NCBI GenBank assembly: GCA_044892525.1
Contig: CM097885.1
Coordinates: 5,396,001-5,460,000 of the forward strand
Reading direction: 5' to 3'
Origin: Schmidtea polychroa
Taxonomy: Eukaryota
Length of the DNA: 64,000 bases
The stretch's first letter is position 1; every line of letters starts with the position of its first letter. The notes under the pieces were generated by a model. It did not search any database, had not been told where the DNA came from, and was given only the letters and a program-made list of their open reading frames with translations. Shown here in pieces: positions 20,200 through 57,010 of this stretch. The position numbers were made by a program, and so were the translations under genes.

Positions 20200-22108
20200 T
20201 AAAATATTCTTTCAATCAACATGAAATTCTTAGAAAATATATGAAAAAATTATTTAGTCAAATTCAATATCATTACAGTAATCATCATCAAAATCTATCC
20301 TATCACTTGATTATTGTAAAAATTCTAATTATTAACCTCATTGAAAATTAATTTTTATTTAAAATTAAAAAACAAGTCAATAAAAATACAGCTAATTATC
20401 AAGAAATTAATTAAATTTACCTTAGAAATTACATTAAAACCTTAAATTTTTAAATATTCTTTCAATCAACATGAAATTCATAAAAATTATAGAAATTCAC
20501 AAAAATGATAGAAATTTAATTGAATATTTACTAAATCCATCAACTCTAAAAACACCAAATTTGCCTAAATAAAATTATCAAAACACACCAATACCCTTAC
20601 GACTAGTACCCTTACGACCAGTACCCTTATGACCAGTACCCTTATGACCAGTACCCATAGGGGTCAAAACATCTTGTCGGACAAACTCAAAGTATATATA
20701 ATAAAATGAATTAACTCCATCTAATTTATCATTGAATCATTCAAATTATCACAAATTTTGAAAAAAAATATTATTCTAAAGTGCTAAGCAATTGTAGGAT
20801 AAAAATGAAAAGAGGATTATTTTTTCATAAACTTTGATAAACTAACAATATTATTCTAAAGTGGTACGAATCTTCATTAAAGTGAGGAAATTATTCATTA
20901 CTCTATGATAAATTAATAATTCAAATGGATGAAAATAAGTGGTAGAATTATTCATTAATGGAAGCTATAATTGATTAATTGTCGATCATCGCGTCTGTGT
21001 GTGCTTTTTACTTTCTTTGTTTTTGGGTTGCGTGCGCACACAGACGCGTTAATTGTGAAAATGATTTTGTGAATTGAAGTATGTGTGCGTGTGTATGTGT
21101 GTTATAATGTCAGCGATATGTAACTGGCTTGTATATATTACAATCAATTAACACCTTGATTTGGAACTGATACATACGTTGGAATTTGGTTTTTTGCTGG
21201 ATTCGAATTAGTGTTTTTGTGTTTTTACGGATCGATTTAAGTTTTGAGTGAGTTTGGATCGTTTTGGAATCTTGAGTTTTGGAATTTTTTGAAATTACTG
21301 TACTTTTGCCAAATATATGATTTTAAATCAAGTTTTTCTGAGACTTCTCTAGTGGATTTAATTATATATATGATTTCAAATCAAGTTTTTGAGATTTCGC
21401 CAGTGGATTTAATTATCAAATCAAATGATCATGCTATTCAACGCGACAGGGGCGTTTACATATCTCAGAATGGTAAATGGGTGACGTGCAAGGATGGATT
21501 TATTGAAACACTTGAATCTGATAACTCAATGGCAATTGGAAATACTAAAAACAAAACTGATGGTTCCTTTTTTATGACTCCAAGAGATCCTGATAACTTT
21601 AATTGTGTTTTTGGTCAACTAATATCAAATTTATTTGGTGTATTGCTGCCGCAGGATTTTAGATTCGATTCGATTACATGTTTCAACAGATTTCGACAAG
21701 TGATTGCACAATAACTCAAAATGTTTCGCCAACATCCTCAGAAAGTACAGCACCAAAATCGGCATCTCTACCAAAATCCTCATCCCCGAAAGCTATTCGT
21801 TCGAGAAGTTCCTCTATCATGTTCATTCATTATTTGCCATTTGCAAATGAAAATTGCGGGACAATTAAACAATAATTGCTAAATGAAAATATATTGAGAA
21901 GTGGCATAGATAAGATGCTTATATATTAATTGATTTAATTAAAATTATTTTTCTAAAAATTATCACTTTAATAAAAATATTTTTAAAAGAAATTAATGTG
22001 GGGATGATATAAGTGATAATAATTAGTGGAATATCGGGGGGAATATAAGTGATTAAATAGTGAAATATCAAGAATCGGGGAGAATTTAAGTGAGGAGGAT
22101 ATATAATT
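20200..22108 (+). mobile_element. Older, diverged copy of element-B arm sequence (left flank of Polinton A)
   Basis: Colinear similarity to about 37200-38405: the tacccttacgaccag repeats and tgtcggacaaactcaaagtata, gaatcttcattaaagtgaggaaatta, gagaagtggcatagataag, and gaggatatataatt. It carries an extra segment of about 0.93 kb at 20965-21895. The left boundary is approximate. Confidence 0.8.
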
Positions 22109-22772
22109 AGTAGTGTGGTTATATACCCAACCAAAACAGCCCTCCCAACAAAACATGCCTCCAAATCACTTAAGCTATTAGAAAAACAACCTAAAACTTA
22201 TACTTTTATAGTATTTTAACCCTATATTTTGAAAACAACCACCCTTAATGACTCTAACTGTTTTAATCTTTAAAGCCTCAAACTCAAAAGCCTCAAACTA
22301 AAAACATAAAGAGAATAGAAAAGAAAATGGTATTATGAAAAAGTTAGAAGGCTACTTGAGGATGCCAACTAGCAAGTTGCTAATTGGCTAATTAAAAAAA
22401 ATAAATGAAATCTTAATCTTGATGTCTTGAAGAATAAAAAATTTTATGAAAATAGTAAAACTGCTCTGAGAGGACAGTGGTTTTTTTTTTTTTTTTTTTT
22501 TTTCACTGTCCTCTCAACAGTTTTTTTTTGATCCGGATCATTTTTTTTTATTTCAACCTCTTTCGTTTATCAAATCTCTTCCAATATACAAGCTGGCCAG
22601 ACTCATACATCAGAATCAATTCGATAATAGCAGCACACCTTACTATTCGCTTCTCGCTCACGAAGTCGATTTCATCGGCGTTTTAAGTGTGCTGCTCGAA
22701 AGTACAAATGAATTCGAAAGTGAATCCGAAAGAGGTCCGAAAACAACCGAGAAATAAATGTGCACATTAAAG
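22109..22772 (+). repeat. Left terminal inverted repeat of Polinton A
   Basis: Reverse complement of 55994-56593, apart from an indel of about 60 bp at about 22515-22575 and few substitutions. Confidence 0.92.
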
Positions 22773-22777
22773 GTGCA

Positions 22778-25700
22778 CATGAAAAAGGTCAAATTATAGT
22801 TTTATAAGTTATTTTTATTCAAATGGTACAGATTGAGCCTCCTTGGCTGAGAGGGTTTACGACAAATGTCAATCAGGATTGTTTTGAGATATCCAAATAT
22901 ATATTACAATCATTTGAGGCTTTTTTTATTAAGAGCTGACTATTATTTCCATTTTAATAAAAGATGTATCATTAAGTCATTGCACTGTTTTCTATTTAAC
23001 ACTTATTTTTGACAATGTCTTTTTCAAGTTCATCCTTTGCACACCATTTCCAGTATAGATTCTTTAAGCAAACAGCAGAGAAGGCTCATATATCAAGCTA
23101 AATATACTATATAAACATGTATTATGGGAAATGGCAGAGCAGCAAGGATGAAGTATTACAATTATACACCGATTCTAAACTCTTAGAGACTACAGTAAGG
23201 GGAAAACATATTATAATTAAACGTTGAATTCGGGTTGTATGTTTGTTGTGTGAGTTCTTCTTTCCAACCGTTTATTGGTTCTATTTTGCCTTTGAAAATA
23301 ATGATATCATTAGAATATTTATTTCCTACCTTTTTGTGATGGGGTTGAAAGGAAGGTTGACAGAATGAAAGTAAAAGGTATATTCATGTCTAACTCCTTC
23401 GGTAATAGACTTGATATATAAAATGTGGTATAAAGTGGTATAAAGTACGATATATATGGGGATGTTCGAGGAACATTTCACAGCTGAAATGTGGCGAAAT
23501 TTATAAGAATATAAAAGAAAGAATCTTATATTAAAATAAATATTTTGTTGTTAATTGTGACACAGATCATCGAACAATGTCTAAATCTTCAAACCTCGGG
23601 AAAACTAGCATAGGATGCGATTGCGCATTGGTTGTCCTTGTCTTTGCTCATCCAGATGTATCCGTTCATTCCCCATTTTGAACTCCAGCTGTTTTTCACG
23701 ATCCAATAATTATCCAATACGTTTGTGCCGTATCCTACGACCAATACTGCATGGTCAATAATTTGAGAACAGTTTGGATCGTTATAAACTCCTGATCTAA
23801 TTATTTACATGATTTATCAACTACTTTCTATAAAAGGTTTTACTTATATAACTGAAACTTCCTCGATACACTAATTGCAACCGATATTGGTCCTTCGTTG
23901 GCCACTGCAATCGCTAAACTCTCTTCATTATTATTTATTTTTTTGTATCCATTGACAGAGGTGACCACTTTCGAACGATTGAACATGCAATTGAGTTTCT
24001 ATAAATATAAAATCAAATCAAATAGTAAGATAAATAATTTGATAGACCCCCCCCCTTCCGTCAGACATAAAAATTAATGCTTTTAATGTTAAATTGCTTT
24101 TTTTATCATAAAATGTTGAACATCTCCAATACAATGATAAAGTGAAGGTTACATCATTGCTTACAGAAAGGGGAGGCTCTGAGTCCATTTTGTATTACGA
24201 AACACTAACTAGGTTAAGTCAGCACTTTGAATAAATAATTGGAATATTCTCAGGTTTTCTGATTGTTCTTTTTCTTATATATTATAAACGTTATCATCCG
24301 ACAAAATTAAGTATATAATAATTATGTAATAAAAATAACACTTGATAAAGGCAGCGCTGAAAGTTTGTGTTAAATCGACAACAATATTGATCAACAGTTG
24401 AAATGAGGATAATTGAAATTTCAAATGAAAATAGAAACAGGTCCAGGTGAAGTAAAAATAAATATTCTTTTATATAAGTAAATATTATTTTCAACTTAGG
24501 AAAATTTTATTTCATAAATAGATTAATAAAATTGTTAATTTTTCATTTTACCAAAAATTTGGTCTAGATAATCAGTTTTACAGAAACATCAAGGCCAGCG
24601 ACATATTTAACAGTTTATCACTCTTATGTCAAGATTTCTATGCCACCCTCTTCACAATTCAAAATACATATTGACAATCACAAATGTTGTCATAAGTTAT
24701 TTTAAGAAGAGAATCCAGTATCAGTCTGTTTTATTAAAAAGTGAAAATAATTAAAGTATAGTGGGTTTATTAGTTTAAACCAGCCATGGCCAACCGGTGG
24801 CCCGCGAAGCGTTTTGATGTGGCCCGGACACAATTTTAAACATCAAATCAATAATTGTCTTTTTTAGAATTCATATTCGAATTAAGCATGTTTTTAATTA
24901 AAAAAATTGATTCTATGTTTACTTGAATCGTAAAAACGAGTTATATTTATTTAAATGAATTTATTGTGGCCCGTGATAGTATTTCCTTTCGATTGATTTG
25001 GGTTGGTCACCACTGGTTTAAACTTTAATAACATAATGATTAGAAATGTGACAAATCTATGATGGGGCCTTGTTGGTCTTGTGACAAAACGGCATTGGTA
25101 TAAAAGAGTTTTGGCTTAAAAAATTAGTTAATTTTCGACGAACTGAAAAATGAGGACTCCCTTGGACGACTACAATTCCAACTGTCCGTAAATATTTTCG
25201 GGTCGGTTACTCATCAACGACCATTTAATTTAAATAAAAAAAATATCATAATTTACAAAACAGTAAAAAAAATTAAGTTTTCAGAAACTAGATTGATTCA
25301 CAAAAAGTTATAATAAATTTATTGAATATTACATCCTATGCTACATAACAAAATAAATAAATACAAAAGTTTCTTACTCTTCAATTTTTACAAAAAAAGC
25401 AGAAGAAAAGTGACTAAATATTTGTAAACTATCCTTTTCAAAGGAGGCATTTCCTATGATGGCTAACTTCCTCAAATAGTTCCGTTAAACAAAGTTTTTG
25501 GTTTCGATATTTTTTATCAATTTATTAATCCACACCGATTTTTTACAATAAAATTCTAGCAGAATTTTTAATTTCTTTCGAAAGAACATAAGATATTTTC
25601 GAATTAAATTTTTTTGCAATTTCTATATATTTCTTACATTCTTTCATTTATAACGGATTTAGATATCTTATCATCTATTAATCATTTTGTTTATTTATTA

Positions 25701-26418
25701 ATTATTAATGATTTAAATATTAAAATTACAAATTTATATTAAAACATTTAGAAAACCAATATTAAATATTTCCCAATAGCGCCAGTGGGCAATACAAAAT
25801 GTATTAAAAACTTTCTGAAAGACTTACCCGAATGTTAATGAAAAATGAAATGACTGCTTGCCTATAATAACTCATTTAAACAAAATTATATTTTTCATGA
25901 ACCTTTAATAAAACGAACATTTTACCTACTTTAGCTTTGTAAGGATAATCCTGTTCTGACTCTATTCCTCCAAGTGTCATAATATCAATAAATGCTGTAT
26001 TCATCCAACCTCCGTTACATCCATTATTACTTTCGCTACAATCTATTAACTGCTGTTCTGATAAACTGACCAAACGTCTAGTCTTGCGAAAATATTGACC
26101 TTCCAAAGATCCTGTTGTTGAAAATGCCCAACAGCCTCCACAGGCACCCTAAGGACAAAATTTACATGAAGAATAAATAATAAAATGTAAAATTATGAAA
26201 TTTATTAGTAAATATCCTTTCGCATTAAATATGCAAAAGCTTGAAAACTAATGTTTTAAAATTTGTGTTAAATAAATAGAAATATTGATCAGAAATGAAG
26301 ATGAAGGAAATTGAAAATAAAAATCGATCAATGGTGAAAAGAATTAAATAGCTACTGTAAGTCAATTATATAATACTTGATAAAGGCAGTGCCGAAAATT
26401 TGTATTGAATAGGAAATT

Positions 26419-26456
<38 letters not shown>

Positions 26457-26526
26457 TTTGATCTTTTGTCATAATGAAAATATTAAAACATCGAAAGCAG
26501 ATAAAAACATTAAATATATATATATA
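22778..26526 (-). pseudogene. Inverted partial duplicate of the cathepsin L locus (part of intron 1, exons 2-4, 3' flank) inside the left TIR of Polinton A
   Basis: Near-identical reverse complement of about 58120-61968. Exons at 26148-25930, 23998-23844 and 23796-23589; exon 1 is absent. Confidence 0.93.
24781..25015. mobile_element. hAT-type MITE with 8-bp TSD (copy inside the duplicated cathepsin intron 2)
   Basis: Ends cagccatggccaacc / ggttggtcaccactg; TSD GTTTAAAC at 24773-24780 and 25016-25023; internal tggccc motifs. Confidence 0.8.
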
Positions 26527-26602
26527 ACTAACCTCAGATGTGATTTGAACCGCTATCCATTTGAACCACTGTGGCGGTCTATTCCCACTGCGCCATCAAG
26601 GT
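26527..26602 (-). ncRNA. Candidate tRNA-like Pol III small RNA (copy 1b; terminator lost at the duplication junction)
   Basis: Minus strand reads accttga TGGCGCAGTGG gaatagaccgccacagtggttcaaatggatagc GGTTCAAATC acat ctgaggt tagt: A box and B box with tRNA-like spacing. Confidence 0.5.
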
Positions 26603-26752
26603 TTGAATTTTTGTCATTTTTTAAATTTTTAATTTATAAAAAAATAAAATAAAATAAAATAAATAAAATAAAATATACAAGTACTTTATAAATATAAGAT
26701 ACCCACACTATTTTCAATATTATTTTCAAATTTTTAATATTATTTTATGTTG

Positions 26753-26835
26753 AAAAAAAAACTAACCTCAGAAGTGATTTGAACCGCTAGCATTTTGAAC
26801 CACTGTGTCAGTCTAGCCCACTGCGCTATCAAGGT
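26753..26835 (-). ncRNA. Candidate tRNA-like Pol III small RNA (copy 1a, left)
   Basis: A box TAGCGCAGTGG, B box GGTTCAAATC, terminal pairing accttg/tgaggt and oligo-T terminator; mirror of 55686-55768. Confidence 0.55.
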
Positions 26836-26941
26836 TTGGATTTTTTGTCATTTTTTAAATTTTTATTATAAAAAATGAATAATATAAATCTTAAAAAATA
26901 AAATGAAAACAGGGTATCCAATAAAAAATCTTTTTCTAAAA

Positions 26942-29900
26942 ATGAATTGTAATATTTGTAATAAAGTTTTTTAAAATAAAACTGGATTAATTTCTCATTT
27001 AAAATCGAAAGCTCATTTATTAAAAGAAAATAATCTTAATGATACAAATTCAAAACTTTGTCTTAAATGTAAAGGAAGATTTCTACATTCTGGATATAAT
27101 AAACATTTTGAAAATTGTATCGGGAAAAATAGAGAAATATTTACATGTCCTCATTGTAACTTTTCAACAAAAGTAAATTTCTATTATTTAGAACATATAA
27201 AAGAATGTAAAAATAAAAAACAAAATCCTGACGATGAGGAATGTCATTCAGAAGGAGAACCTGATCATGTTGAAAGAGAAAAATATAACTGGGATGATTT
27301 TAATCATGTAGATGAATTTTAATTAGAAATCAATGGACCTATAACTCCGGGAGAATATATAAATAAAAATAAAAAATATATTAAAAATTCTTTCACTGAA
27401 GCTTTAAAAAATTATAAACCGACAAGGTATAATGTTATAAAATATAAAATTATAATCAAAGCAAAATACTGGCGAGGAGCAGAAGAAAAGACAACACCCT
27501 TAGATGTTGAAATTGGAATACCTTTTAAATATTTATTTTCAATTAAAGGATTTGATAAAACCATCAAAGAAATAATTAAAGCAGCAGAAGCAAAACAAGA
27601 GGAAGTAGAAAATGAATTAGGAGATTCAAACTTAGTATTCAACTCTTTCCAAACTTTAGTGATTGATTATTGGAGAGGATTACCACCCAATCCTAAATCT
27701 TATATTCCTACACCCTTTAAATCTAAAAATGTTATAAATGTACAGAATAATGATAACAAATGTTTCATCTGGTCAATACTTGCACATTTACATCCTCAAG
27801 CAACAAATCCCCAAAGAGTTTCAAAATACAAACAATATGAAAATGAATTAATATTTCCCAAAGGATTCAAACACCCAATGAAACTAGAAGACATTCCAGA
27901 ATTTGAAAAATTAAATAATCTTAAACTTAATATTTATGAACATGTTATAGGGAAAGAAATTATTCCAATTTATATTTCAGATAGTGGAACCAAGGATAAC
28001 GGAGCACAGGACAACGAGATATATCTTTTAATCTTGGAACAAGAAAATAATCAACATTATGTTTTAATAAAAAACTTTCAAGCTTTTACATCTCCAGAGA
28101 ATCCAACTAGTGGAGGAGGAACATGTAAAAGATGTCTTCATTATTCAACAACTAAAAACTCTATGATTAAACATACAAGATTTTGTGAAAAAGATGATCC
28201 AGCTTTAATTAAAATGCCTAATAATCCCAAGATGTATTTTAAAAACTTTTCAAATTTACTACAAACAGTTGGAGTTCTTTATGGTGACTTTGAATCTATA
28301 AACCATAAACAAGATTTGGTTTATCAATATTTAAAAATAATAGAAAAAAATAAACTCATGGATTTATGGAACTCCTCAGGAGAGAAGATGAAACCAGAGA
28401 GGATGAAAGCCTTTCTAAGAAAAAGAAATAAACCTAATAGTGTTAAAAAAACTAAACAATTACCATCTGCTTATAAATTATTATTTAAAAGTAATTATCC
28501 TGAACTCATAGAATCTAGAGAATATTCAATTCTAGGAGGTACCCCTGAAGAAGTCTTGAATCATTTTACTAAAAGTATAAATGATCTAGAACATGAAATA
28601 TTTAAAATATTAAAAACAAAGTATCCTCAAAATATTTCTAATCAACAACAACAAGAATATGAAAATACTTCCAACTGTTGGATGTGTAAACAGAATATTC
28701 TTCCTGATGAAAAAGTTATAGATCATGATCATTTAAAAAAGGAAAATAATTATCGAGGAGCAGCTCATAAAAATTGCAATCTTAATTGCCATACTCCTAA
28801 ATTTATACCTGTTATATTTCATAATCTTTTTGGATATGACATACATCTATTTATTAAACATTTAGCAGCAAATGCTAAAAACTCTTTCAAAGTTATCGGC
28901 TTAACAAAGGAAAAATATAAATCAGTTGAATATGGGAAATTAAAATTTATAGACTCGTTAAACTTTCTTCAAATGTCTCTAGATGGAATAGCTAAAACAA
29001 TGAAACCAGAAGATTTTAAAATCACTCGAGAATTCTTGGAAAAAAATAATATTCCTCTAGAAGAATATCCTACATGTTTAGCAAAAGGAATATATCCTTA
29101 TGACTATGTTGACTCGTTTGAAAGATATAATGAAACAATTCTTCCTAACAAAGAAGATTTCTTTTCAAACTTACTACAATCAGGGATTACAGATCAAGAA
29201 TATTCTCGAGCATTAAAAATGTGGGAATTATTCAAGTGTAAAACTTTAGGAGAATATACCAACATGTATTTATCCTTAGATGTTTATATTCTAGCAGATT
29301 GCTTTGAAGAATTTACAAACTCTTTTGTTCTTAAACCTTATAATTATATAACTGCACCCTCTTTAGCTTGGGATACTATGTTATATACCATTTGGACTTC
29401 AAATATAGAAGAAGCTGATAAAATTATAGATCTTTTAACTAACCTCGATATGTTTAATCTAATTAAAACAAACATTAGAGGAGGAGTCTCTTCAGTAATG
29501 GGGAATAGAGAAATAAAAGCTAGAAATGCAATAACTACTAGCCGAAGACTATCTAAACACCCTGATGATCCATATATGAAAATTAACAATGAGGAATTAA
29601 AAGAATTATTAGAAACAATGAAAAATCCTATATTTATACTTTATATAGATGCAACAGCTTTATATTCAGGAATTATGACTCAATATTTACCAATGAGTGA
29701 TTTCACTGAAATAGAGAACCCAACAGATGACCTTATGAAAGAAATACTTTCAACATCGAAAGATTCTCCAATAGGTTACTTTATAGAATGTGACCTCGAC
29801 TATCCAGATGATATAAAATCAGGAACAAGATATTTTCCTTTAGCTCCCATAAGAAGAAAGATTGATATCAACGAACTTTCTGAATGGCAAATCTCACAAG

Positions 29901-30619: not shown

Positions 30620-30736
30620 AGTAGGTAGATAGTAGCCCACTGCAGCAATGACCCCCCCCCCCCGGGGGGGGGGGGTTCTGCTGCAACTTTTTTTTTGCTG
30701 CAACTTTTTTTTGCTGCAACTTTTGATTACGCAATT

Positions 30737-47281: not shown

Positions 47282-47393
47282 AACCAACGATATTTAATTT
47301 TTTAATAATAAAATGTCGACAATTTATTTAAGCAACTATAGCAACCTGATCTACTTTTTTTTAAAAATGCATCCATTTTATATATTTATAATT

Positions 47394-47987: not shown

Positions 47988-47995
47988 TTTAATAA

Positions 47996-49006
47996 TTAAA
48001 AAAATAAGATTTTATTCTTCTGAGCACCATCTGGCACCAATACTCGGATATCAAAAGAAACTCTTGTTGAGAGAATATCTTTATACAATTCCATCAATGC
48101 TTTACGAACTTCATCAACATCAACCTTTTTTTCATAAAATATTAAATCTATATAATCCACAAGTGTGCTTTTAAAAATAATATTCTTACTTTTAACTTTA
48201 TGTAGTCCATGTGAATGAGTATTAACATACCAATCTCCGTGTGGTAAATCATAACTAGTCATTATAACATCACCCTTTTCAAGCTTACTATTATAATCAC
48301 ATTTCACAAACCATTTCATTCTTTCATTATTATCATCAAACAAAAAGAAATAAGGATCAATAATTTTTACAACCATAAAAACACCCCATTCTTTACTGTT
48401 TGTTGTTATTAAACTTGGTTCTATAAAATGTTTATATGTATGGGGTAATAATGTTTTATTCTGTTCTAATTCAGCAGCTCTTTTTCTAATACTATGTGTG
48501 GTGTTAATGTGTGTTCCATGAGACTCTAAATTTGAAATTCTTTTATTAAATGATGTAATCATCTCATTTATTTTATTATATATTGTATTAAATTTAGTAT
48601 TCATAATTTGTTTATCTTTAGAATTTAATATAGCAGTATTTAACTTTACAACTTGTTCAGTTAACAGACTTTGTAACTTGTCAAATTTATCATTAAATCG
48701 TTGTTCGATATTATTAAGCTTTGATTCCATTGAATCAATTTTTGTTGTTAATGAACTTTCAATTCTTGTTGTTGTTAAATCAGTATATTTTTTAACACCA
48801 TCTACATATTTCTTATTAACTGCATCAGCTTCATCAGTTGGAAAAGATAATTCTTTTATCTTGTGTCCATTTAAAATTAAATCACCCTTCATTGAATCAC
48901 CTCTTTCATTAATATATTTATTTTCTGTTAAAGTTAATATTTCTTCTGTATTAAACCCTGTTTTTATTGTTCCACCACCTCTATTACATGGAATATAAGA
49001 ACTCAT
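47996..49006 (-). CDS. Putative fiber/adhesin-like virion protein, 336 aa
   Basis: GDSMKGDLILNGHKIKELSFPTDEADAVNKKYVD resembles the neck motif of trimeric fibers and YadA-type adhesins, followed by coiled coil; adjacent to the penton gene. Confidence 0.65.
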   Translation of the reverse strand: MSSYIPCNRGGGTIKTGFNTEEILTLTENKYINERGDSMKGDLILNGHKIKELSFPTDEADAVNKKYVDGVKKYTDLTTTRIESSLTTKIDSMESKLNNIEQRFNDKFDKLQSLLTEQVVKLNTAILNSKDKQIMNTKFNTIYNKINEMITSFNKRISNLESHGTHINTTHSIRKRAAELEQNKTLLPHTYKHFIEPSLITTNSKEWGVFMVVKIIDPYFFLFDDNNERMKWFVKCDYNSKLEKGDVIMTSYDLPHGDWYVNTHSHGLHKVKSKNIIFKSTLVDYIDLIFYEKKVDVDEVRKALMELYKDILSTRVSFDIRVLVPDGAQKNKILFF

Positions 49007-49030
49007 TTATTAATAATTTAAAATGAATCT

Positions 49031-49795
49031 TCAAACCTGTTTCAAATGTAAATACATTGAAATCTCTTCTCCATTAAAATCAATCAATTCTCCTTCTTGA
49101 TTAAGAATTTTAAAATTAATATCCATTATATATTTTTTACATAAAGGTAAATAATTTGGAGGATTCATTCTTTCAACTATTTTATATCCCATAGGAACTG
49201 TGTTTGAGGGAAAGGAATATAAAACATTTGTTTGTTTACCATTATTATAAGAACCTGTTATACAATCGCAATGAATATTTATTGTGTTTGTATTTATTAT
49301 TTTTATAATATGTTCTGATGTTATTATTTTATCTTCTTTTATTGTTATATCCATAGGTTTAAATCCTAAAACTGTGTGAAAGAAACAATTATCTAAAAAA
49401 CTAATTTTTATATTCTTCAAAGTCATTACACATTTTGAAGTTGGTATATCCATTTTAATTTTAATACCTTCATTTGTTTTTTTAGAAAGTATATCATTTA
49501 AATCTTTTATCTCATATGCCCCAGGTTCTATTGTTATAATTTCTGGTTTATGCCCATCACGAGTTTGAATAGTAAATTTATTATTATCTTTAGTTATATT
49601 AAAAATAGTATTATAAGCACAAAACCATAATAGCCCCAATTCATAATTTAAATTTTGATCTAATTTAATTGAATCTTGAAAGTTTATAGTAAACTCTGAT
49701 TCTTTTGAATTTATAGATAAAGTTCTTGAATATTTATCTGACATTATGTTTACCATTTTTTTTAAATTATCTTCCGGAGGGTTGTGAAGCTCCAT
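49031..49795 (-). CDS. Minor capsid protein (penton, single jelly-roll), 254 aa
   Basis: YELGL, IxIxPGxYxIxDLN, INIHCDCITGSY...VLYSF, PxYLP and NQEGELIDFNGE motifs typical of the Polinton minor capsid protein. Confidence 0.85.
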   Translation of the reverse strand: MELHNPPEDNLKKMVNIMSDKYSRTLSINSKESEFTINFQDSIKLDQNLNYELGLLWFCAYNTIFNITKDNNKFTIQTRDGHKPEIITIEPGAYEIKDLNDILSKKTNEGIKIKMDIPTSKCVMTLKNIKISFLDNCFFHTVLGFKPMDITIKEDKIITSEHIIKIINTNTINIHCDCITGSYNNGKQTNVLYSFPSNTVPMGYKIVERMNPPNYLPLCKKYIMDINFKILNQEGELIDFNGEEISMYLHLKQV

Positions 49796-49843
49796 TTCTT
49801 TAGTAGTAAATTGATATAGTAAAAATCCTTATAGTAAAAATCC

Positions 49844-50308
49844 TTATAGTAGAGATTCTAGATCATTATAAATTTCTTGAATTATAGATTCAAAATCCTG
49901 CGTATGCCCCTTTCCCTCTCCCTTATTCAATCTATACAAAACATATAAACTTATAATACCACATATTTTAGTATTCAAAGGTTGAACTTGTAAAGAGTTA
50001 AAAGTATAACCATTTGGGGAATCAATCGGAGAACCCCTCAAGAGATAATCTTCAACTTCTTTAGTAGGTTTAATCCCAAAAGAATCAAAGTAGATAGATT
50101 TCTTATATATACAAACCCAATGAGATCCTTTTTCATTTGAATTTTGATAATTGATTATTATATTCAGGGGACTCTCCAGACTTGATAATTCATCATTCAT
50201 TAATATTTTAATTTTTAAATTTAAATAATTTGCATAATCTTTTAAATCAAAATTTGTTTTTGCATTTATTCCAAATGTTTTTAAAAAATCTAATATTGAA
50301 GGAGTCAT
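49844..50308 (-). CDS. Adenain-like cysteine maturation protease, 154 aa
   Basis: GSHWVC (His), YFDSFG (Asp) and QxQ...CG (Cys) catalytic motifs. Confidence 0.9.
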   Translation of the reverse strand: MTPSILDFLKTFGINAKTNFDLKDYANYLNLKIKILMNDELSSLESPLNIIINYQNSNEKGSHWVCIYKKSIYFDSFGIKPTKEVEDYLLRGSPIDSPNGYTFNSLQVQPLNTKICGIISLYVLYRLNKGEGKGHTQDFESIIQEIYNDLESLL

Positions 50309-50330
50309 TTTGTATTTTAAAACTTCATAT

Positions 50331-51224
50331 TTATAACTTCGTATACTTATTAAATTTATCTTTTGAAATTATTCCTTGTTTTAACAAATCTTTAGAAATC
50401 TTTAAAATATCAGAATCTAAATTATTATGTCCTGCTTTCCTTGCAGCTAATAGTTTTCTTAATTCAATAAAAAGATTGATGGGATTTGGTTTACCACCTT
50501 CACTAATTAATCCCTCTCCCTCTGTAACAACATAACCCTTTTCATTTTTATTTAAATAATTCTTTAAATCTTGAATATATTTTGCTTTAGAACTAGCTCT
50601 TATTAATCTTATTAAATTTAAATATTTTTTAATTTCTTCAACATCATCTGAAGAATATCCACAAAGTAATCTATAAAAATCATCTGTAAATTCAAAGTCT
50701 AAATATTCATTATTATAAACATTTTGTGAATGAATACGTGATTTATTTTCTGAATTTGAATATAAAGTAAAGTTTTGTTTATTAATTGTTATTATTTGAT
50801 ATCCTTCAGTATTAGTATTAAATGTGGGTCTAATTGAAGGAGGTAAATCATCTCTAATTTTAGGATCAACTTTAAGAGGTTTTGTTTTTAAAAACATTTC
50901 TTCTTCTTCCACATTAGAAATTCTTCTGCGTTTTCTTTGATTTCTTTCAGAATGACTTTCAGGATGGTTTTCACTGGATTCTTTTTCTTTATCCTGCCAC
51001 TCTAGTTCTTTTATTTTTTGTTTTTTATCTTCTAACTCTTTAAATTTTGCTTGCTCATTGAAATCTTCCAACTCTTTTATAGCTTTAATTGTTGGCCCCT
51101 GTTGTTGTGTTATTACCTCATTTAATATTATAGATTCAGCATGTTGAGTTGTATCTTTTTTATTATATTTATCTTGTTCTGATTGTAATTTTTTTAAAAG
51201 TGCTAATCTTTCTTCATATACCAT
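50331..51224 (-). CDS. Polinton hypothetical protein, 297 aa (charged N-terminus, NLS-like RKRRR, C-terminal LLAARKAGHN motif)
   Basis: Long ORF with aaaATG start, tightly packed in the gene block; the C-terminal motif resembles one recurrent in Polinton ORFs. Confidence 0.7.
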   Translation of the reverse strand: MVYEERLALLKKLQSEQDKYNKKDTTQHAESIILNEVITQQQGPTIKAIKELEDFNEQAKFKELEDKKQKIKELEWQDKEKESSENHPESHSERNQRKRRRISNVEEEEMFLKTKPLKVDPKIRDDLPPSIRPTFNTNTEGYQIITINKQNFTLYSNSENKSRIHSQNVYNNEYLDFEFTDDFYRLLCGYSSDDVEEIKKYLNLIRLIRASSKAKYIQDLKNYLNKNEKGYVVTEGEGLISEGGKPNPINLFIELRKLLAARKAGHNNLDSDILKISKDLLKQGIISKDKFNKYTKL

Positions 51225-51246
51225 TTTAATGGTATCAAAAATGGTA

Positions 51247-51825
51247 TCATAGTTCGAAGGGCTTCAAGTATAATCCTTTACCATTTTTAGTTTCACAAAG
51301 GCATCCATTCTTTAAAGATTTACATATTTTTTTTAAATCTTCTTTATCTTTTGAAGATAAAGATTCAGATGTAGAAATTTGATTTTTTAAAAAATCATTT
51401 AAACCTCTACCTTTATAAGGATCAAGATAGAGACCTTTGCCCTGAGACTTTTGCCGACTCCCCTCATATGGATTAAGATAGAGACCCTTTCCAACGGACA
51501 CTCCCCCTTTAGCTTGCCCTACCTTCTTCATTGAATCGATTTCAGTTTGTAGTTTTTCTTTTTCTAGGTCTGTCTTTTGAGATTCTTTAGCTTTTTGAAC
51601 TGTAGTTGCAATTCCTCCAGCTATTCCAGCAGCACCTGATAAACCAGCAATGATTGCAGGTATTAAAGCAGCTAATGGAAGAATGCCACCTTCTTTAGCT
51701 TCGTGGAGCTTCGCTCTAACTTGTTCTTTTACATGTTTTCCAATAAAATATTTTTTACCATCAATTACTACTGATTTATTTTTATTTGAATTTATTAATT
51801 CTTGCAAAGATTCTTCAGTTGTCAT
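51247..51825 (-). CDS. Adenovirus pX/mu-like virion core protein, 192 aa
   Basis: GGILPLAALIPAIIAGLSGAAGIAGGIA resembles the adenoviral pX GGILPLLIP segment; three GKGLYLxP repeats. Confidence 0.75.
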   Translation of the reverse strand: MTTEESLQELINSNKNKSVVIDGKKYFIGKHVKEQVRAKLHEAKEGGILPLAALIPAIIAGLSGAAGIAGGIATTVQKAKESQKTDLEKEKLQTEIDSMKKVGQAKGGVSVGKGLYLNPYEGSRQKSQGKGLYLDPYKGRGLNDFLKNQISTSESLSSKDKEDLKKICKSLKNGCLCETKNGKGLYLKPFEL

Positions 51826-51840
51826 TTTATAATAAACAAA

Positions 51841-52647
51841 ATGGATGTACGAAGTCCAATAATTTGGAAACCAATTTTAAATAGACATAAGAGTAAATTT
51901 CATAATAAAGTATTTCCTGATAATTTTAGATTATTAATTGTTGGTTCTTCTGGATGTGGAAAGAATGTACTTGTTTTGAAAATGTTACTTGAAGATGATT
52001 TTTTAGATTATAATAATTTAATCTTTTATTCTACAACCATAAATCAACCAGAATTACAACTTTCGAAATGTGGATTTGAAAATAAATTAACTAAAAAAGC
52101 AATAATTGATATTTTTAAAAATCAACATAGGTGTCCTGAAGAAGTTTTTCAACCTTGTGATATGGTTGATTGGTATAAGGAAAAGATTTTAGAATCAGAT
52201 ATTAGTAATAAAAATGATTATATTTGTGAAGAAGGGCAGGAGGCAATTCAAGTTTTATTCTCTAATAAACCTGAAGATGTTTTACATTGTGATTTACTTC
52301 CTAAAGATAAAAAGAATCTAGTTATATTTGATGATGTTGTTAATATGAAAAATCAAGAGATTCAAAAGAGTTACTTTACACGAGGTCGACATAATAATTG
52401 TAATGTTATTTATATATCTCAAACATATTATGCTTTAGATAAAAATTCAATAAGAAATAATTCCAATTGTTTTATATTTTTTAAATTAGATCGCCGTGAT
52501 AAGAATATGATTTATAATGATTTATTTTCAAATGTTGAACCTGATAAGAATATGTTTGATATGTTTGTTGATAATCATTGGAAAGAAAAATATAATTATA
52601 TTTATTTGGATAGAGAAGAAGCTGAAATATGGAAAAGTTTGTTTTAG
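51841..52647 (+). CDS. A32/FtsK-like genome packaging ATPase
   Basis: Walker A GSSGCGKN, Walker B LVIFDD, RGRH arginine-finger motif and IYISQ; likely ATG at 51841. Confidence 0.9.
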   Translation: MDVRSPIIWKPILNRHKSKFHNKVFPDNFRLLIVGSSGCGKNVLVLKMLLEDDFLDYNNLIFYSTTINQPELQLSKCGFENKLTKKAIIDIFKNQHRCPEEVFQPCDMVDWYKEKILESDISNKNDYICEEGQEAIQVLFSNKPEDVLHCDLLPKDKKNLVIFDDVVNMKNQEIQKSYFTRGRHNNCNVIYISQTYYALDKNSIRNNSNCFIFFKLDRRDKNMIYNDLFSNVEPDKNMFDMFVDNHWKEKYNYIYLDREEAEIWKSLF

Positions 52648-52658
52648 GGCTTGTCGAC

Positions 52659-54049
52659 TTAAAAATCTGTTTTCTGTAGTTCATTATTATAAAATCTACC
52701 TAATATTTTTTCATTATTTAAATCAAAGATGCTATATGTTATTGGAGTTGTATAATGTATTTTATTTATAATAAAAATTTCATTTGTCCATTTTGCTGTG
52801 AATCCTTTTTCAAATTTATTTTTATATTTAAATATTCTTACTCGGTCACCAATTTTAAACTTTGGTTTTTCAATAACATCATTTTCAATATTTACCACTT
52901 TAATGGTTTCAGGCTTCATGGAAGCATTTAAAGGTGTTAATTTTATAGAACTATGTACATCATTATTATATTCATTTACAATCTTTTGTAACAATTCATT
53001 GTTCCATTTTTGTTTTCCAATAGCAGTAAAATATTTCCACATTTTATTTTTTAATGTTCTATTTAATCTTTCAACTACGACTGCTTTTCCTTCGTTTTCT
53101 GTTGAATATAATTTAATATCATTTTCATTTAAAAACTTTGTAAAAACTTTGTTATAAAATTCTGTTCCTTTATCACACCATAAATATTTTGGGATTCTTT
53201 GATTTTCTTCAAATATATTTTCAAATGCTTCTGTAATAGAATATCCTGTTTTATTTTCTAAACATCTTGCAAAAGCAAATCTTGTATATAAATCTATTAC
53301 AGTTAAAATTATTTTATATTTTTCAGGGTCTGATGATTTGGGCATAAAGACTAAATCTGCAGACCATGTTTGATCTTTTTCATGTACTTGAACTTTTAAA
53401 TATTTTTTATTTTTTCTAAATTCATGGTGTAATTCTTTTGCATATTTTATTTCTGATTCTGTTGGGGTTTGTAAACTAGTCTTGGCTGTACTCTCGAGGG
53501 ATCTTTCAATCTCTGCTTGTTCGATAATCTTTTTATAAGCAACATCTTTTGCTTTCCTAGGAAGTCTTGCACCCATGGTGATCGGACTGTGTCCTAAGCC
53601 TATGAAAATCTTACCTTTCATTGCTAATTTAACTAGAGCTCTTTGAATCTTTTCTTGGGTTGATGGATTTTGGATACTATTTAAATCATGTATTAAATTC
53701 ACATCTGCAACATGTCTATCTCTAAGATTTGTTGAATTGTATGCAATGTCATGTTTTAAAGCTGCTTGATCAATTCTATTTATTGGTTCTTCTCCTTGTT
53801 TGGGATTATTATTTTCATCTAATCTAATATCTAGACGTGTTCCTGGTCCAGTATAGTTGTGTTTAAATAAATGTCTTTCACCTGGATATTTTTCTGTAGT
53901 AAAAGGTTTTAATATTGAAGATGTTGTTTTTGAAGATTGCAAATCGCCTCCAGCTCGTGGAATTTAGTTTTAAGATGACTTGCTTTATGATGTCTTGTAA
54001 CTTGACAATTACAACTTTCACATCTCCAATAGGATTTATTTAAAGACAT
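52659..54049 (-). CDS. Retroviral-like DDE integrase with N-terminal parvovirus-type PLA2 domain; upstream zinc-finger segment out of frame
   Basis: HNYTGPGT...DQAALKHDIAY (PLA2); WSADLV, LWCDKGTEF and VVERLNRTLK (D,D,E); C-terminal FKIGDRVRI. ATG at 54049 encodes CESC...HLKTKFH but in a different frame from ORF 53942-52659. Confidence 0.88.
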
Positions 54050-54066
54050 TTTAAAATGTTAAAATA

Positions 54067-55359
54067 TTAAGAATCTCCCCTAACATTTTCAATAATTGAA
54101 ATCTTTCCACCATATAATTTCTTTTCTATTTTCTTTTCTTCTAATATTAATGTATATACTTTAGCTTTAAAATTAGAATCCTTTGTTACATGAAGTGTAA
54201 CATCAACATTATTTATGGCTAGGCGATCATCTTGGTCTGAAACATTTATACAAAATATAGAATATAAATTTTTGAAATCTTCTAAACTTAATTGCGGTTC
54301 AACTTTGAAATCATAACATGTTTCAATATAATTTAGATATGGAAATATGTTTTCATTATTTTCAATATTAAATTCCATTCTATTTATTGGATAATAAGAA
54401 CTATTTAATTGAATTTGGATTGTTTTTAAATTATAATCTCCAATCTTTTGAATAAACAAGTTGTTATTTTTTTGGAAAGATGAATCTGTTTCTTTGAATC
54501 CAATCAAGATATATCTTGGTCGGTATGCTAAATTTGCTACCTTTATAGAATATGTTGAACCCTCTGTCATACTAAATTCACTACAGATTCTATTTAAATA
54601 ATTTACATTTATAGACTTGTTGGAATTTAATCTTTCAAGGAGTTTAATCTCAGAATGTGGGTTTAATGTCCATTCAGGTATATGTAATTCAAGTGTTGAT
54701 AATTTTAATTTAGCTTTTGTATCTACAGCTCCATAGAACAATCTTTTATCACCTTCTACTCTATTACAGATGAATTCTATAAAAACATTATGAAGTATAC
54801 GATTATAGTTTTGAAGGAATCCAAACAAGTGTTTTAATTCAAAATAACCTTCAAATTTTTTAGATTTATAAAGTTCAGCTCTTTTATGGTAACCATGGTT
54901 TACATCTAAACCATCTTTATCTAAATCCCCTTTATTAACATCAGGAATCCAACCTGTTAATTCACCATATTCGTTTTTATAATCACAACCAGTCAAAATA
55001 AAATTTAACATTGTAGAATATACTCCCGGATGCAAAACAGTTTCAATTTCTGATGATCCTAGTTTTAATCTCATGTTGGAGAATAAATTTGGAAAGAAAT
55101 TATTTTCTAGGGTTATATCTTTGTTTGCTTCAATTTCTAATTCTACTTTGTAATATAATTTGGCATTACAAATATCTATTGGGTTTGATGTTTGAAGAGA
55201 TTGAAAAACTATATCACCCCTACGATTTAAGTTTGCAATAGATCCTGAAGTTGGAGAGATTTTAAGTACATCATTTTTCTTGATTTCATGAGTAAATTCT
55301 TTATTATAATCAAGATTTAATTTATTTTTTTCTTGAATTTTAAGATTTATATTATTCAT
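54067..55359 (-). CDS. Major capsid protein (double jelly-roll, hexon-like), 430 aa
   Basis: Size and motifs NFFPNLFSNMRLKLGSSEIE, LKHLFGF, RPRYILIGF, IQLNSSYYP and YSIFCINVS typical of the Polinton major capsid protein. Confidence 0.85.
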   Translation of the reverse strand: MNNINLKIQEKNKLNLDYNKEFTHEIKKNDVLKISPTSGSIANLNRRGDIVFQSLQTSNPIDICNAKLYYKVELEIEANKDITLENNFFPNLFSNMRLKLGSSEIETVLHPGVYSTMLNFILTGCDYKNEYGELTGWIPDVNKGDLDKDGLDVNHGYHKRAELYKSKKFEGYFELKHLFGFLQNYNRILHNVFIEFICNRVEGDKRLFYGAVDTKAKLKLSTLELHIPEWTLNPHSEIKLLERLNSNKSINVNYLNRICSEFSMTEGSTYSIKVANLAYRPRYILIGFKETDSSFQKNNNLFIQKIGDYNLKTIQIQLNSSYYPINRMEFNIENNENIFPYLNYIETCYDFKVEPQLSLEDFKNLYSIFCINVSDQDDRLAINNVDVTLHVTKDSNFKAKVYTLILEEKKIEKKLYGGKISIIENVRGDS

Positions 55360-55443
55360 TTTTATATATAAAAGTTGATAAAAATAAAAGTTGAAAAAAA
55401 AATAAAAATAAAAGGGAATTCAATAAAAAAATAATTTATAAAA

Positions 55444-55692
55444 ATGATTGACTTTATTGAAAGAATGAGAAATGAATTGAATGAAGTTAAACTTAAGAGA
55501 ATGAAAAGAAGAGAAGAAGAACCATTAGAATACATTAAAGAGTTGGTGGTAGAGAATGAAAAGTATCGACATTTTTACATGAATGCAGTAGAAGTAGCTG
55601 AAAAAAGATTAGATAAACTAAAACAATTACAGGAAAGAATAAAAGAACTTGAATCGATTATTTTAAAAAATGACAAAAAATCCAAACCTTGA
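55444..55692 (+). CDS. Small charged coiled-coil protein, 82 aa
   Basis: aaaATG start, divergent from the capsid gene; heptad-like E/K/L pattern; no recognisable family. Confidence 0.55.
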   Translation: MIDFIERMRNELNEVKLKRMKRREEEPLEYIKELVVENEKYRHFYMNAVEVAEKRLDKLKQLQERIKELESIILKNDKKSKP

Positions 55693-55768
55693 TAGCGCAG
55701 TGGGCTAGACTGACACAGTGGTTCAAAATGCTAGCGGTTCAAATCACATCTGAGGTTAGTTTTTTTTT
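55686..55768 (+). ncRNA. Candidate tRNA-like Pol III small RNA (copy 1a, right)
   Basis: accttga TAGCGCAGTGG (A box, 55693-55703) ... GGTTCAAATC (B box, 55736-55745) acat ctgaggt tag, then T9; about 72-nt tRNA-like layout. Confidence 0.55.
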
Positions 55769-55933
55769 CAACATAAAATAATATAAAAAATTTGAAAATA
55801 ATATTGAAAATAGTGTGGGTATCTTATATTTATAAAGTACTTGTATATTTTATTTTATTTATTTTATTTTATTTTATTTTTTTATTAATTAATTATTTTT
55901 TAAACATAAATATGAAAAAAAAAATATTGAAAC

Positions 55934-55997
55934 GGGTGTGGTGGCGAACCGGTAATTATCGCCACCTGTCTTTCGAACACCCCCGGATCGATTCTTT
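55934..55997 (+). ncRNA. Second candidate Pol III / structured small RNA (type 2)
   Basis: A-box-like TGGCGAACCGG and B-box-like GGATCGATTC; stems GGTGGCGA/TCGCCACC and GGGTGT/ACACCC; a GC island in AT-rich context. Confidence 0.45.
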
Positions 55998-56593
55998 AAT
56001 GTGCACATTTATTTCTCGGTTGTTTTCGGACCTCTTTCGGATTCACTTTCGAATTCATTTGTACTTTCGAGCAGCACACTTAAAACGCCGATGAAATCGA
56101 CTTCGTGAGCGAGAAGCGAATAATAAGGTGTGCTGCTATTATCGAATTGATTCTGATGTATGAGTCTGGCCAGCTTGTATATTGGAAGAGAGGACAGTGA
56201 AAAAAAAAAAAAAAAAAAAAACCACTGTCCTCTCAGAGCAGTTTTACTATTTTCATAAAATTTTTTATTCTTCAAGACATCAAGATTAAGATTTCATTTA
56301 TTTTTTTTAATTAGCCAATTAGCAACTTGCTAGTTGGCATCCTCAAGTAGCCTTCTAACTTTTTCATAATACCATTTTCTTTTCTATTCTCTTTATGTTT
56401 TTAGTTTGAGGCTTTTGAGTTTGAGGCTTTAAAGATTAAAACAGTTAGAGTCATTAAGGGTGGTTGTTTTCAAAATATAGGGTTAAAATACTATAAAAGT
56501 ATAAGTTTTAGGTTGTTTTTCTAATAGCTTAAGTGATTTGGAGGCATGTTTTGTTGGGAGGGCTGTTTTGGTTGGGTATATAACCACACTACT
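55994..56593 (-). repeat. Right terminal inverted repeat of Polinton A
   Basis: Reverse complement of 22109-22772; ends ACTACT followed by the TSD ATAATT. Confidence 0.92.
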
Positions 56594-57010
56594 ATAATTT
56601 AAATTATTTTTTAATATATTACTAACAAATAAAAATATTTTAATAACGCGTTATTGATTGACATTTATTATGATAAATTATTAAATCCACATATGTTTAT
56701 TTTATTACATAACAAGCTGTGAATGGTATTTTATAAATTATTTGATGCTTTTAGAAAACATTTTACCAAATATTTATTTGAAAAGTTAGTAAGTATATAT
56801 AATTTTAATTCTATTTTTAGATTGCATATATTTTGAATATTATTCTATTGTTTAATTCCTACAATAATTTTAAAAGTCTATAACTGTTAATAAATTAATT
56901 TCTTATTTACATTATTCGAGAATTTAAAAATTTTACTTATAAAATTTATATTTTTAAATTAAAATATTTAATTGATGATTTAATTTTAATTCTATTTTAT
57001 AAAATTCATA
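56594..57010. mobile_element. Continuation of the older element-B copy (inner arm end and spacer) right of Polinton A
   Basis: ttattacataacaagctgtgaa at about 56702, and the following sequence resembles the reverse complement of about 39150-39400. Confidence 0.72.

What the first reader, a model, noticed from the sequence alone, without database searches (positions are those of the whole stretch)
20200..57010. Reciprocal nesting: B-family sequence hosts Polinton A, and a younger B copy sits inside A's polymerase gene
Seen: A has exact termini and TSD ATAATT. Rejoining its flanks gives gaggatat-ataatt-taaattatttt, which matches the arm of inner element B at 38391-38416 (gaaggatat-gtaatt-taaactatttt). 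B-like sequence continues on both sides of A. B in turn is inserted with a 6-bp TSD into A's polB. Inference: two Polinton-integrase substrates have inserted into each other. This could reflect a helper/satellite pair that co-replicates extrachromosomally or targets one another, with the satellite disabling the helper's polymerase.
Basis: partly seen in the sequence, partly recalled or inferred. Interest (0 to 1): 0.88.

Follow-up and report, generated by a model that had tools for sequence, protein, structure and literature searches.

The report
Two Polinton families nested by chance
A virus-like Polinton transposon sits inside an old relic of a gene-less palindromic Polinton relative and is itself split by a young copy of that relative, but these families fill about a quarter of the genome, so such nesting is expected by chance.

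Summary
A is a young Polinton/Maverick at 22109-56593 with TSD ATAATT. B is a 16,041-bp gene-less palindromic element at 30620-46660 with TSD TACGAA, and it splits A's protein-primed polymerase gene. Nine of 9 other A copies examined have the empty site. A's flanks are colinear with B's inner arm and loop at about 70-81% identity, and a paralog shows the uninterrupted target with a single ATAATT.

B's termini are not A's. They match a second, distantly related autonomous Polinton lineage (PolB 27-32%, integrase 37% identical to A), which is B's likely helper. The host copy B' is an old relic.

Five of 30 A insertion flanks lie in B-type DNA, against 15 of 80 random genome positions (Fisher p=1.0). 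Two of 20 B-type insertions lie in A-type DNA, against 6 of 80 random positions (p=0.66). The families cover about 26% of sampled positions. No insertion site is shared between events.

The same scan had already described this palindromic gene-less family elsewhere in the genome.

Side observations: part of the neighbouring cathepsin-L-like gene is duplicated inside A's arm, and B's termini carry hairpins.

The parts
20158..22108 (.). B' left piece: decayed B-like sequence (inner arm), hosting A. It contains a further nested repeat of about 0.9 kb at 20963-21870.
   Evidence: 70-81% identity to B 37227-38405, colinear. The 21190-21878 part has many copies at 84-92% identity in the genome.
22103..22108 (.). 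Left copy of A's target-site duplication ATAATT (right copy at 56594-56599).
   Evidence: The empty-site paralog L081 has a single ATAATT.
22109..56593 (+). Polinton/Maverick A: 34,485 bp as found, about 14.7 kb without B and C1.
   Evidence: Identical 20-nt termini. TIRs 22108-22515/56594-56188 are 99.8% identical and 22575-22772/56191-55994 are 99.5% identical. Gene set. Seven of 8 other A elements checked at both ends have perfect 6-bp TSDs.
22778..26526 (-). C1: duplicate of most of the neighbouring cathepsin-L-like gene (papain-family exons, no exon 1), lying inside A's left arm and replacing 95 bp of arm sequence.
   Evidence: Zero substitutions against 58116-61968 over 2207+1472 nt. Peptidase_C1 hits with E 1e-28 and 1.5e-23. 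Only these two copies plus one 82% paralog exist in the genome.
27323..30619 (+). 5' part of A's protein-primed DNA polymerase B gene (1099 codons), cut by B.
   Evidence: PF03175, E 1.2e-12. Aligns with Bc3 PolB.
30614..30619 (.). Left copy of B's target-site duplication TACGAA (right copy at 46661-46666).
   Evidence: Empty site in 9 of 9 other A copies examined.
30620..46660 (.). B: gene-less palindromic (foldback-like) non-autonomous Polinton-type element. Layout: terminal 21 nt; hairpin from nt 22 (C12G12 on the left, C9G9 on the right); subterminal tandem arrays of 148-, 60-, 30- and 19-bp units; arms 31490-38472 and 39372-46385; loop 38473-39371.
   Evidence: No ORF of 150 aa or more. 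No tblastn hit of Polinton proteins.
46667..47281 (+). 3' part of A's pPolB gene, displaced by B.
   Evidence: In frame with the 5' part (coordinates). Residues 11-104 align with Bc3 PolB residues 308-404, E 5e-7.
51799..52647 (+). A32-type packaging ATPase of A.
   Evidence: PF04665, E 1e-8.
52659..53963 (-). rve integrase of A, with an N-terminal PLA2-like domain.
   Evidence: PF00665, E 7e-12; PF08398, E 3.7e-9.
54067..55419 (-). Double-jelly-roll major capsid protein of A.
   Evidence: PF21738, E 1e-26.
47394..51876 (-). Six further A ORFs of 174-336 aa with no significant Pfam family.
56594..57002 (.). B' right piece: the inner arm end and loop of the B-like relic.
   Evidence: Best genomic relatives are 81-90% identical.
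57297..61968 (+). Host cathepsin-L-like gene and source of C1. Exon 1 (57297-57727) has an in-frame TAA at 57468-57470.
62964..63629 (.). B-like sequence to the right, presumably the other arm of B'.
   Evidence: 73% identity to B 41541-42201.

Best explanation
This is an ordinary three-layer nest of integrase-mediated insertions in a genome saturated with two Polinton lineages.

Sequence of events (steps 1-3 are shown by sequence):
1. Long ago a B-type palindromic element, or a fragment of one (B'), lay beside a cathepsin-L-like gene and decayed.
2. Recently an autonomous Polinton of family A integrated into B' through its rve integrase, duplicating ATAATT.
3. Also recently, a 16-kb gene-less palindromic B element integrated into A's pPolB gene, duplicating TACGAA and cutting off the last roughly 205 codons.

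Inferred: B is the non-autonomous partner of a second autonomous Polinton lineage (Bc3-type), with which it shares its termini and about 2 kb of subterminal repeats. That lineage's integrase and polymerase, not A's, are its likely helpers.

Tested by sampling: because A-type and B-type DNA together make up roughly a quarter of the genome, A-in-B and B-in-A events occur at the rate expected from genome fraction. No targeting or partnership is needed to explain them.
For: Structure: exact termini and TSDs. Empty sites in 9 of 9 A paralogs examined and in paralog L081. Colinearity of A's flanks with B.

B's helper: B-type termini are shared at 94-99% over 141 nt with 39 other places. These include the autonomous element Bc3, which encodes an ATPase, an rve integrase with a weak chromodomain hit, a C5 protease, pPolB and a TBP-like domain. 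A and Bc3 proteins are only 27-37% identical.

Age: A and B are young. At least 39 other places are about 100% identical to the A segments queried. B's loop is 100% identical elsewhere. B's arms show 33 mismatches in 6219 nt, only 1 of them outside repeat arrays and arm edges. B' is old.

Control, using the same BLAST library for all sets:
- 80 random 300-bp positions gave 6 A-type hits, 15 B-type hits, 1 other and 58 none.
- 30 A-terminus flanks gave 5 B-type, 1 A-like and 24 none. Fisher p=1.0, odds ratio 0.87, 95% CI 0.28-2.6.
- B-type insertion events besides the window's own gave 2 of 20 in A-type DNA, p=0.66.
Against: - Samples are small, so an enrichment of up to about 2.6-fold (A in B) or about 7-fold (B in A) is not excluded.
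- Sampled insertions are the copies most similar to the window's. Random positions came only from the four largest contigs (699 of 781 Mb).
- The library is just the window plus four B-type elements, so diverged relatives are missed equally in all sets.
- A and B termini share their first 5 bases (AGTAG), so cross-recognition by A's integrase is not formally excluded.
- No B-type terminus of B' lies in the window, so B' is shown to be B-like DNA, not shown to be a once-complete element.
- No read-level check of the assembly was obtained.
Confidence: 0.85

Rival explanations
1. Helper/satellite pair: B is a satellite of A, co-replicates with it or targets it, and disables the helper's polymerase. 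A in turn targets B.
For: Reciprocal nesting at one locus. Both insertions have 6-bp TSDs and termini starting AGTAG. A second B-type element (Bc3) sits in an A-family TIR and another (L039) sits in a diverged A-like polB.
Against: B's termini and subterminal repeats match the Bc3 lineage, not A. B has terminal hairpins and A has none. There is no excess of nesting over random positions. Insertion sites differ in every case. B' is a decayed relic. Only the window's own copy among the 30 B termini fetched has the A-polB junction, and 0 of 9 other A copies examined carry B at this site.
Confidence: 0.05
2. Shared chromatin preference: both families are steered into the same silent compartment, for example by the chromodomain-like tail of the Bc3-type integrase. 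They would then meet more often than in a uniform genome without recognising each other.
For: A weak chromodomain hit in the Bc3 integrase (E 3.6e-4, below Pfam's cut-off). Passages in PMC10558129 report that Polintons are over-represented in the B compartment of a planarian genome.
Against: The observed nesting rate equals the plain genome fraction, so no extra co-localisation is needed. Whether that paper's genome is this one was not established.
Confidence: 0.08
3. Assembly artefact: the palindrome, or the nesting, is a chimeric join made by the assembler.
For: Long perfect palindromes and 100%-identical inverted duplicates (C1/C2) are typical products of foldback reads. Three other elements have flanks that are inverted copies of each other instead of TSDs.
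Against: Exact 6-bp TSDs and matching empty sites cannot come from misassembly. The arm-loop-arm layout recurs in diverged copies that are 82-91% identical to B. The loop gives 1684 first-look candidates and the arm 4060. The artefact reading remains open only for C1.
Confidence: 0.02

Closest known systems
Polinton/Maverick self-synthesising transposons (adintovirus-like elements) of animals
   Same: A has pPolB, an rve integrase, a DJR capsid protein, an A32-type ATPase, long TIRs and a 6-bp TSD. Papers give the 6-bp TSD and long TIRs as typical (PMC3014272 and PMC12220804, passages read).
   Different: Nothing fundamental. No adenoviral-type protease was detected in A by Pfam. The integrase ORF carries a PLA2-like N-terminal domain.
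Autonomous/non-autonomous transposon pairs that share only their ends (Ac/Ds1-type, MITE-like)
   Same: B shares its termini and about 2 kb of subterminal repeats with the autonomous Bc3 lineage. Its interior is unrelated to Bc3 and it has no coding capacity. For the Ds description only the abstract in a search listing was seen (PMC3260210).
   Different: B is 16 kb long, palindromic and high-copy. Its presumed helper is a virus-like Polinton rather than a cut-and-paste transposase.
Foldback (FB) elements of Drosophila and similar long-inverted-repeat transposons (recalled, not read here)
   Same: Long inverted arms built largely of short tandem repeats around a central loop.
   Different: A 6-bp TSD, AG...CT termini and ends shared with a Polinton. 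This is a resemblance in structure, not membership.
Nested mobile elements inside Polinton-like viruses and virophages
   Same: A mobile element interrupts an essential gene of an integrated virus-like element (PMC12220804, passages read).
   Different: There the invaders are retrotransposons. Here the invader is itself Polinton-type, and the invaded element sits in a relic of the invader's family.

Membership tests
Polinton/Maverick (element A) | [quoted passage not shown] | tested here: met
   PF03175, E 1.2e-12. The gene is split by B in this copy.
Polinton/Maverick (element A) | Retroviral-type (rve) integrase | tested here: met
   PF00665, E 7e-12.
Polinton/Maverick (element A) | Double-jelly-roll capsid protein and A32-type packaging ATPase | tested here: met
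   PF21738, E 1e-26; PF04665, E 1e-8.
Polinton/Maverick (element A) | Adenovirus-type cysteine protease | tested here: inconclusive
   No Pfam hit at E<=0.01 in A's ORFs. It is present in the Bc3 lineage (PF00770, E 1.4e-5).
Polinton/Maverick (element A) | Terminal inverted repeats and a 6-bp target-site duplication | tested here: met
   Seven of 8 other A elements have perfect 6-bp TSDs.
Non-autonomous Polinton derivative (element B) | Termini shared with an autonomous Polinton | tested here: met
   The 21-nt terminus is identical, the first 141 nt are 99% identical to the Bc3 element's end, and the subterminal repeats are 74-89% identical.
Non-autonomous Polinton derivative (element B) | 6-bp TSD, with empty sites in paralogous targets | tested here: met
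   TACGAA. Empty site in 9 of 9 other A copies examined. Two other B-type elements have TSDs TGTGCA and CATATC (flanks).
Non-autonomous Polinton derivative (element B) | No coding capacity of its own | tested here: met
   No ORF of 150 aa or more. Longest ORF in the right half is 118 aa. No tblastn hit of A or Bc3 proteins.
Non-autonomous Polinton derivative (element B) | Mobilised in trans by the autonomous partner | not testable with these tools
   Inferred from shared ends and from many near-identical copies.
Helper/satellite pair A-B | Satellite carries the helper's cis-acting ends | tested here: not met
   Only the first 5 nt are shared. The patterns do not cross-match at up to 3 mismatches. 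B has a terminal hairpin and A does not.
Helper/satellite pair A-B | Mutual insertion above the expectation from genome fraction | tested here: not met
   5/30 against 15/80 (p=1.0) and 2/20 against 6/80 (p=0.66). Power is low.
Foldback (FB) superfamily | Long inverted arms of tandem repeats around a loop | tested here: met
Foldback (FB) superfamily | 9-bp TSD and a MULE-related transposase partner (recalled definition) | tested here: not met
   The TSD is 6 bp and the partner with the same ends is a Polinton.

The most novel reading that the evidence does not exclude
The gene-less B family may be a self-templating 'foldback Polinton'. Arms of about 8 kb stay nearly identical within each copy: B has 1 substitution in about 4.9 kb of unique arm, and two diverged copies have arms about 97-99% alike by mismatches. 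Between subfamilies the arms differ by 9-18%. This would fit one arm being regenerated from the other (hairpin or snap-back copying, or panhandle repair) during protein-primed replication supplied by the Bc3-type lineage. The covarying terminal hairpins would then be the cis signal. On this reading, hits such as the one in A's polymerase are collateral damage in a genome where three Polinton-type lineages compete for about a quarter of the DNA. An alternative not excluded is that each copy is simply young and inherited near-identical arms from its master.
Probability: 0.2. Interest if true: 0.5.

Novelty: already known. Interest (0 to 1): 0.2.

Why it matters
The value is mainly negative. A striking reciprocal nest that looked like a virus/satellite relationship turns out to be what random insertion predicts when two Polinton lineages occupy about 26% (95% CI 17-37%) of sampled genome positions.

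It also assigns the palindromic gene-less element to its likely true helper, a second Polinton lineage with the same ends.

It leaves two small leads:
- how 8-kb arms are kept near-identical;
- whether the copy of the neighbouring cathepsin-like gene inside A's arm is a real first step of host-gene capture by a Maverick.

Tried and rejected
Short stretches were fetched instead.
- Read-level validation failed.
- Rfam scans of 18000-64000 (E<=0.1) and of one B arm (E<=10) gave no credible family.
- ARAGORN found no tRNA, despite a tRNA-like motif in A's arms.
- tblastn of A and Bc3 ORFs against B and B' gave nothing, so the origin of B's interior stays unknown.
- I first read the 57737-62771 segment as a transposon 'D' with 277-bp TIRs. 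I dropped this when exon 1 of a cathepsin-like host gene was found to start at 57297.
- An apparent enrichment (5 of 30 A flanks in B-type DNA, against my first guess of a 2-5% genome share) vanished once random positions were sampled.
- Kapitonov and Jurka 2006 is not held. What I say about AG...CT termini is recalled.
- Searches for Polinton non-autonomous, nested or palindromic elements and for Polintons in planarians found no description of a palindromic non-autonomous Polinton. Repbase could not be consulted.
Full report
**1. What is in the window**

A self-comparison shows two nested inverted-repeat structures.

The outer one, A, has identical 20-nt termini (AGTAGTGTGGTTATATACCC) at 22109 and, inverted, at 56593. 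They are flanked by the direct repeat ATAATT at 22103-22108 and 56594-56599.

A encodes the following:
- a protein-primed PolB (PF03175);
- an A32-type ATPase;
- an rve integrase;
- a double-jelly-roll capsid protein;
- six further ORFs with no significant Pfam family.

A is therefore a Polinton/Maverick. It is 34,485 bp as found and about 14.7 kb once two inserts are removed. Other A elements in the genome measure 13.8-20 kb between termini.

The inner structure, B, runs 30620-46660 (16,041 bp). Its termini are AGTAGGTAGATAGTAGCCCAC, with one mismatch in the right copy, and it is flanked by TACGAA.

B is almost a perfect palindrome, with arms 31490-38472 and 39372-46385 around an 899-bp loop. 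In the 6219-nt ungapped core the arms differ at 33 positions. Of these, 31 lie in tandem-repeat arrays or at the arm edges, another is close to the array, and only one is an isolated substitution.

The arms are built largely of tandem arrays of 148-, 60-, 30- and 19-bp units and are strongly strand-asymmetric in composition.

B has no ORF of 150 aa or more and no tblastn similarity to the proteins of A or of the related autonomous element.

**2. The two insertions are genuine**

The PolB frame of A is open for 1099 codons up to 30619. It resumes in frame at 46667. The downstream piece aligns with the C-terminal part of a related PolB.

Nine of 9 other A copies whose flanks I fetched (L002-L010) run uninterrupted from window position 30620 to 46661, sharing only the 6-bp site plus one base. 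The other 31 hits were not examined beyond the 600-bp query.

For A, the left flank aligns with B's inner arm right up to the TSD (ATAATT against GTAATT at B 38400-38405). The right flank continues with TAAATTATTTT against TAAACTATTTT. After an indel it runs on into the end of the arm and the loop. Further right, 62964-63629 matches the arm again.

A paralog of this host sequence elsewhere (L081) shows the uninterrupted site with one ATAATT.

**3. What B and B' are**

B-type termini are abundant: the first look gave 2158 candidates, and the 40 scored were 94-100% identical over 141 nt.

Some termini bound gene-less palindromes like B. Bc4a and Bc4c are 82-91% identical to B in the arms.

Others bound an autonomous-type Polinton, Bc3 (G000:C3:5602349-5619763). 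It has an ATPase, an rve integrase with a weak chromodomain hit, a C5 protease, a pPolB and a TBP-like domain. Several of its frames are broken in that copy.

Bc3 shares with B the termini and roughly 2 kb of subterminal repeats, but not the interior. Its PolB is 27-32% and its integrase 37% identical to A's.

Both B termini carry a hairpin starting at nucleotide 22. The outer stems differ between the two ends while the structure is kept. A's terminus has no such hairpin.

I therefore infer that B is the non-autonomous partner of the Bc3 lineage, not of A.

The host sequence B' is only about 70-81% identical to B. It is equally far (70-73%) from Bc4a and Bc4c. Its closest genomic relatives are 81-92% identical, and it contains another nested repeat at 20963-21870. 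No B-type terminus other than B's own is in the window.

B' is thus an old, decayed, probably truncated B-like copy.

A and B are both young. The A segments queried have about 39 other copies at about 100% identity. B's loop and arm have copies at 100% identity elsewhere.

**4. Is the nesting more than chance?**

I took one terminus from each of 30 different A elements among the 40 best hits. The other 10 hits were the window's own two termini and eight partner ends. I compared the 300 bp outside each terminus with a library made of the window plus four B-type elements.

- A flanks: 5 of 30 lie in B-type DNA, 3 in autonomous-type interior and 2 in gene-less arms. One lies in A-like DNA and 24 gave no hit.
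- Random control: 80 random 300-bp positions were drawn with a seeded generator from the four largest contigs (699 of 781 Mb; the small contigs were not sampled) and run against the same library. They gave 15 B-type hits, 6 A-type hits, 1 other and 58 none. Two of the B-type hits are short, 34 and 68 bp.
- Comparison for A in B: Fisher's test gives p=1.0, odds ratio 0.87, 95% CI 0.28-2.6.
- B flanks: the 30 B termini fetched reduce to 23 distinct flanks. By my reading of the coordinates, that is 21 insertion events, 20 besides the window's own.
- B in A: 2 of the 20 lie in A-type DNA. One is the Bc3 element, in an A-family TIR with TSD TGTGCA. The other is L039, in a diverged A-like polB. This compares with 6 of 80 random positions, p=0.66.

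None of the events shares a homologous insertion site.

The two Polinton groups together cover 21 of 80 random positions, or 26% (95% CI 17-37%). With such coverage roughly one A insertion in five should land in B-type DNA. By rough inference, reciprocal nests are then expected several times per genome.

**5. Mechanism**

Shown: two integrase-type insertions with 6-bp TSDs, and truncation of A's PolB by B. The stop falls two codons into B.

Inferred: the order of events was B', then A, then B. B was mobilised by Bc3-type proteins. This A copy can no longer make its own polymerase.

The 30 B termini fetched and the 9 other A copies examined include no second A::B junction. There is thus no sign that the composite spread.

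**6. Known context**

The following come from passages I read, not whole papers:
- rve integrases of Polinton-like elements give 6-bp TSDs, and nested retrotransposons disrupting PLV genes are described (PMC12220804).
- A 6-bp TSD and long TIRs are typical of Polintons (PMC3014272).
- Polintons/Mavericks are a major, piRNA-repressed, B-compartment-enriched class in planarian genomes (PMC8532177, PMC10558129 and a 2026 Dugesia preprint).

Whether this genome belongs to that group was not established. The genome tool only states that the rules for animal or plant genomes apply.

My data agree on the structure and the order of abundance. The 7SL-like fragment that note reports was not recovered here by Rfam.

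**7. Verdict**

The anatomy is real and cleanly resolved, and it is ordinary for this genome. The helper/satellite and mutual-targeting interpretation is not supported. Interest is low.

The residual leads are the maintenance of B's 8-kb arms and the cathepsin-like gene copy inside A's arm.

Noticed in passing
window 22778-26526 (C1) and 57297-61968: 3.75 kb of the neighbouring cathepsin-L-like gene (papain-domain exons, without exon 1) is duplicated in inverted orientation inside A's left arm, replacing 95 bp. It has zero substitutions against the source 32 kb away, differing only by one 14-bp indel and AT-microsatellite length. The genome holds only these two copies plus one 82% paralog. This is either a very recent in-situ capture of host DNA by a Maverick or a misassembly.
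   Followed up: partly
window 57297-57727: Exon 1 of the cathepsin-L-like gene has an in-frame TAA (57468-57470) in the middle of the I29 propeptide domain, so the gene may be a pseudogene.
   Followed up: partly
window 52659-53963 (-): A's integrase ORF starts with a parvovirus-type phospholipase-A2-like domain (PF08398, residues 31-112, E 3.7e-9), ahead of the rve core.
   Followed up: no
window 30641-30686 and 46595-46639: Both B termini carry a hairpin from nucleotide 22. Its core is C12G12 on the left and C9G9 on the right, and the outer stems differ in sequence between the ends (TGCAGCA.../GGGAACAA...) while still pairing. DNA folds give -22 and -17.9 kcal/mol, z -3.5 and -2.3.
   Followed up: partly
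L018/L020 (G000:C4:27761062-27771387), L014/L032 (G000:C4:15834404-15849179), L056/L164 (G000:C1:235351582-235366977): Three elements have flanks that are inverted copies of each other instead of a TSD. In one case at least 1000 bp of flank is 99.9% identical in inverted orientation. The palindrome therefore extends beyond the element, through inverted duplication or an assembly foldback.
   Followed up: no
L047-L048 (Bc4c, G000:C4:15834404-15849179): This B-type copy lacks the 899-bp loop. Its two arms meet directly, giving a loopless palindrome.
   Followed up: no
L041:3000-3512 (-): The autonomous Bc3-type Polinton encodes a TATA-binding-protein-like domain (PF00352, E 5e-16).
   Followed up: no
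window 26527-26625, 26760-26859 and 55662-55761: A's arms contain a tRNA-like module (GGTTCAAATC-type motif), duplicated in the left arm. ARAGORN and Rfam do not call it.
   Followed up: partly
G000:C1:213936112-213944289 (L027, L036, L037): B-type termini recur three times at 4,019-bp spacing with identical flanks, so a B end is embedded in a tandem array.
   Followed up: no
window 16911-18578 (-): An ABC-F-type ATPase ORF (two ABC_tran domains, E 8e-44) lies just left of B', so the nest sits between two host genes.
   Followed up: no
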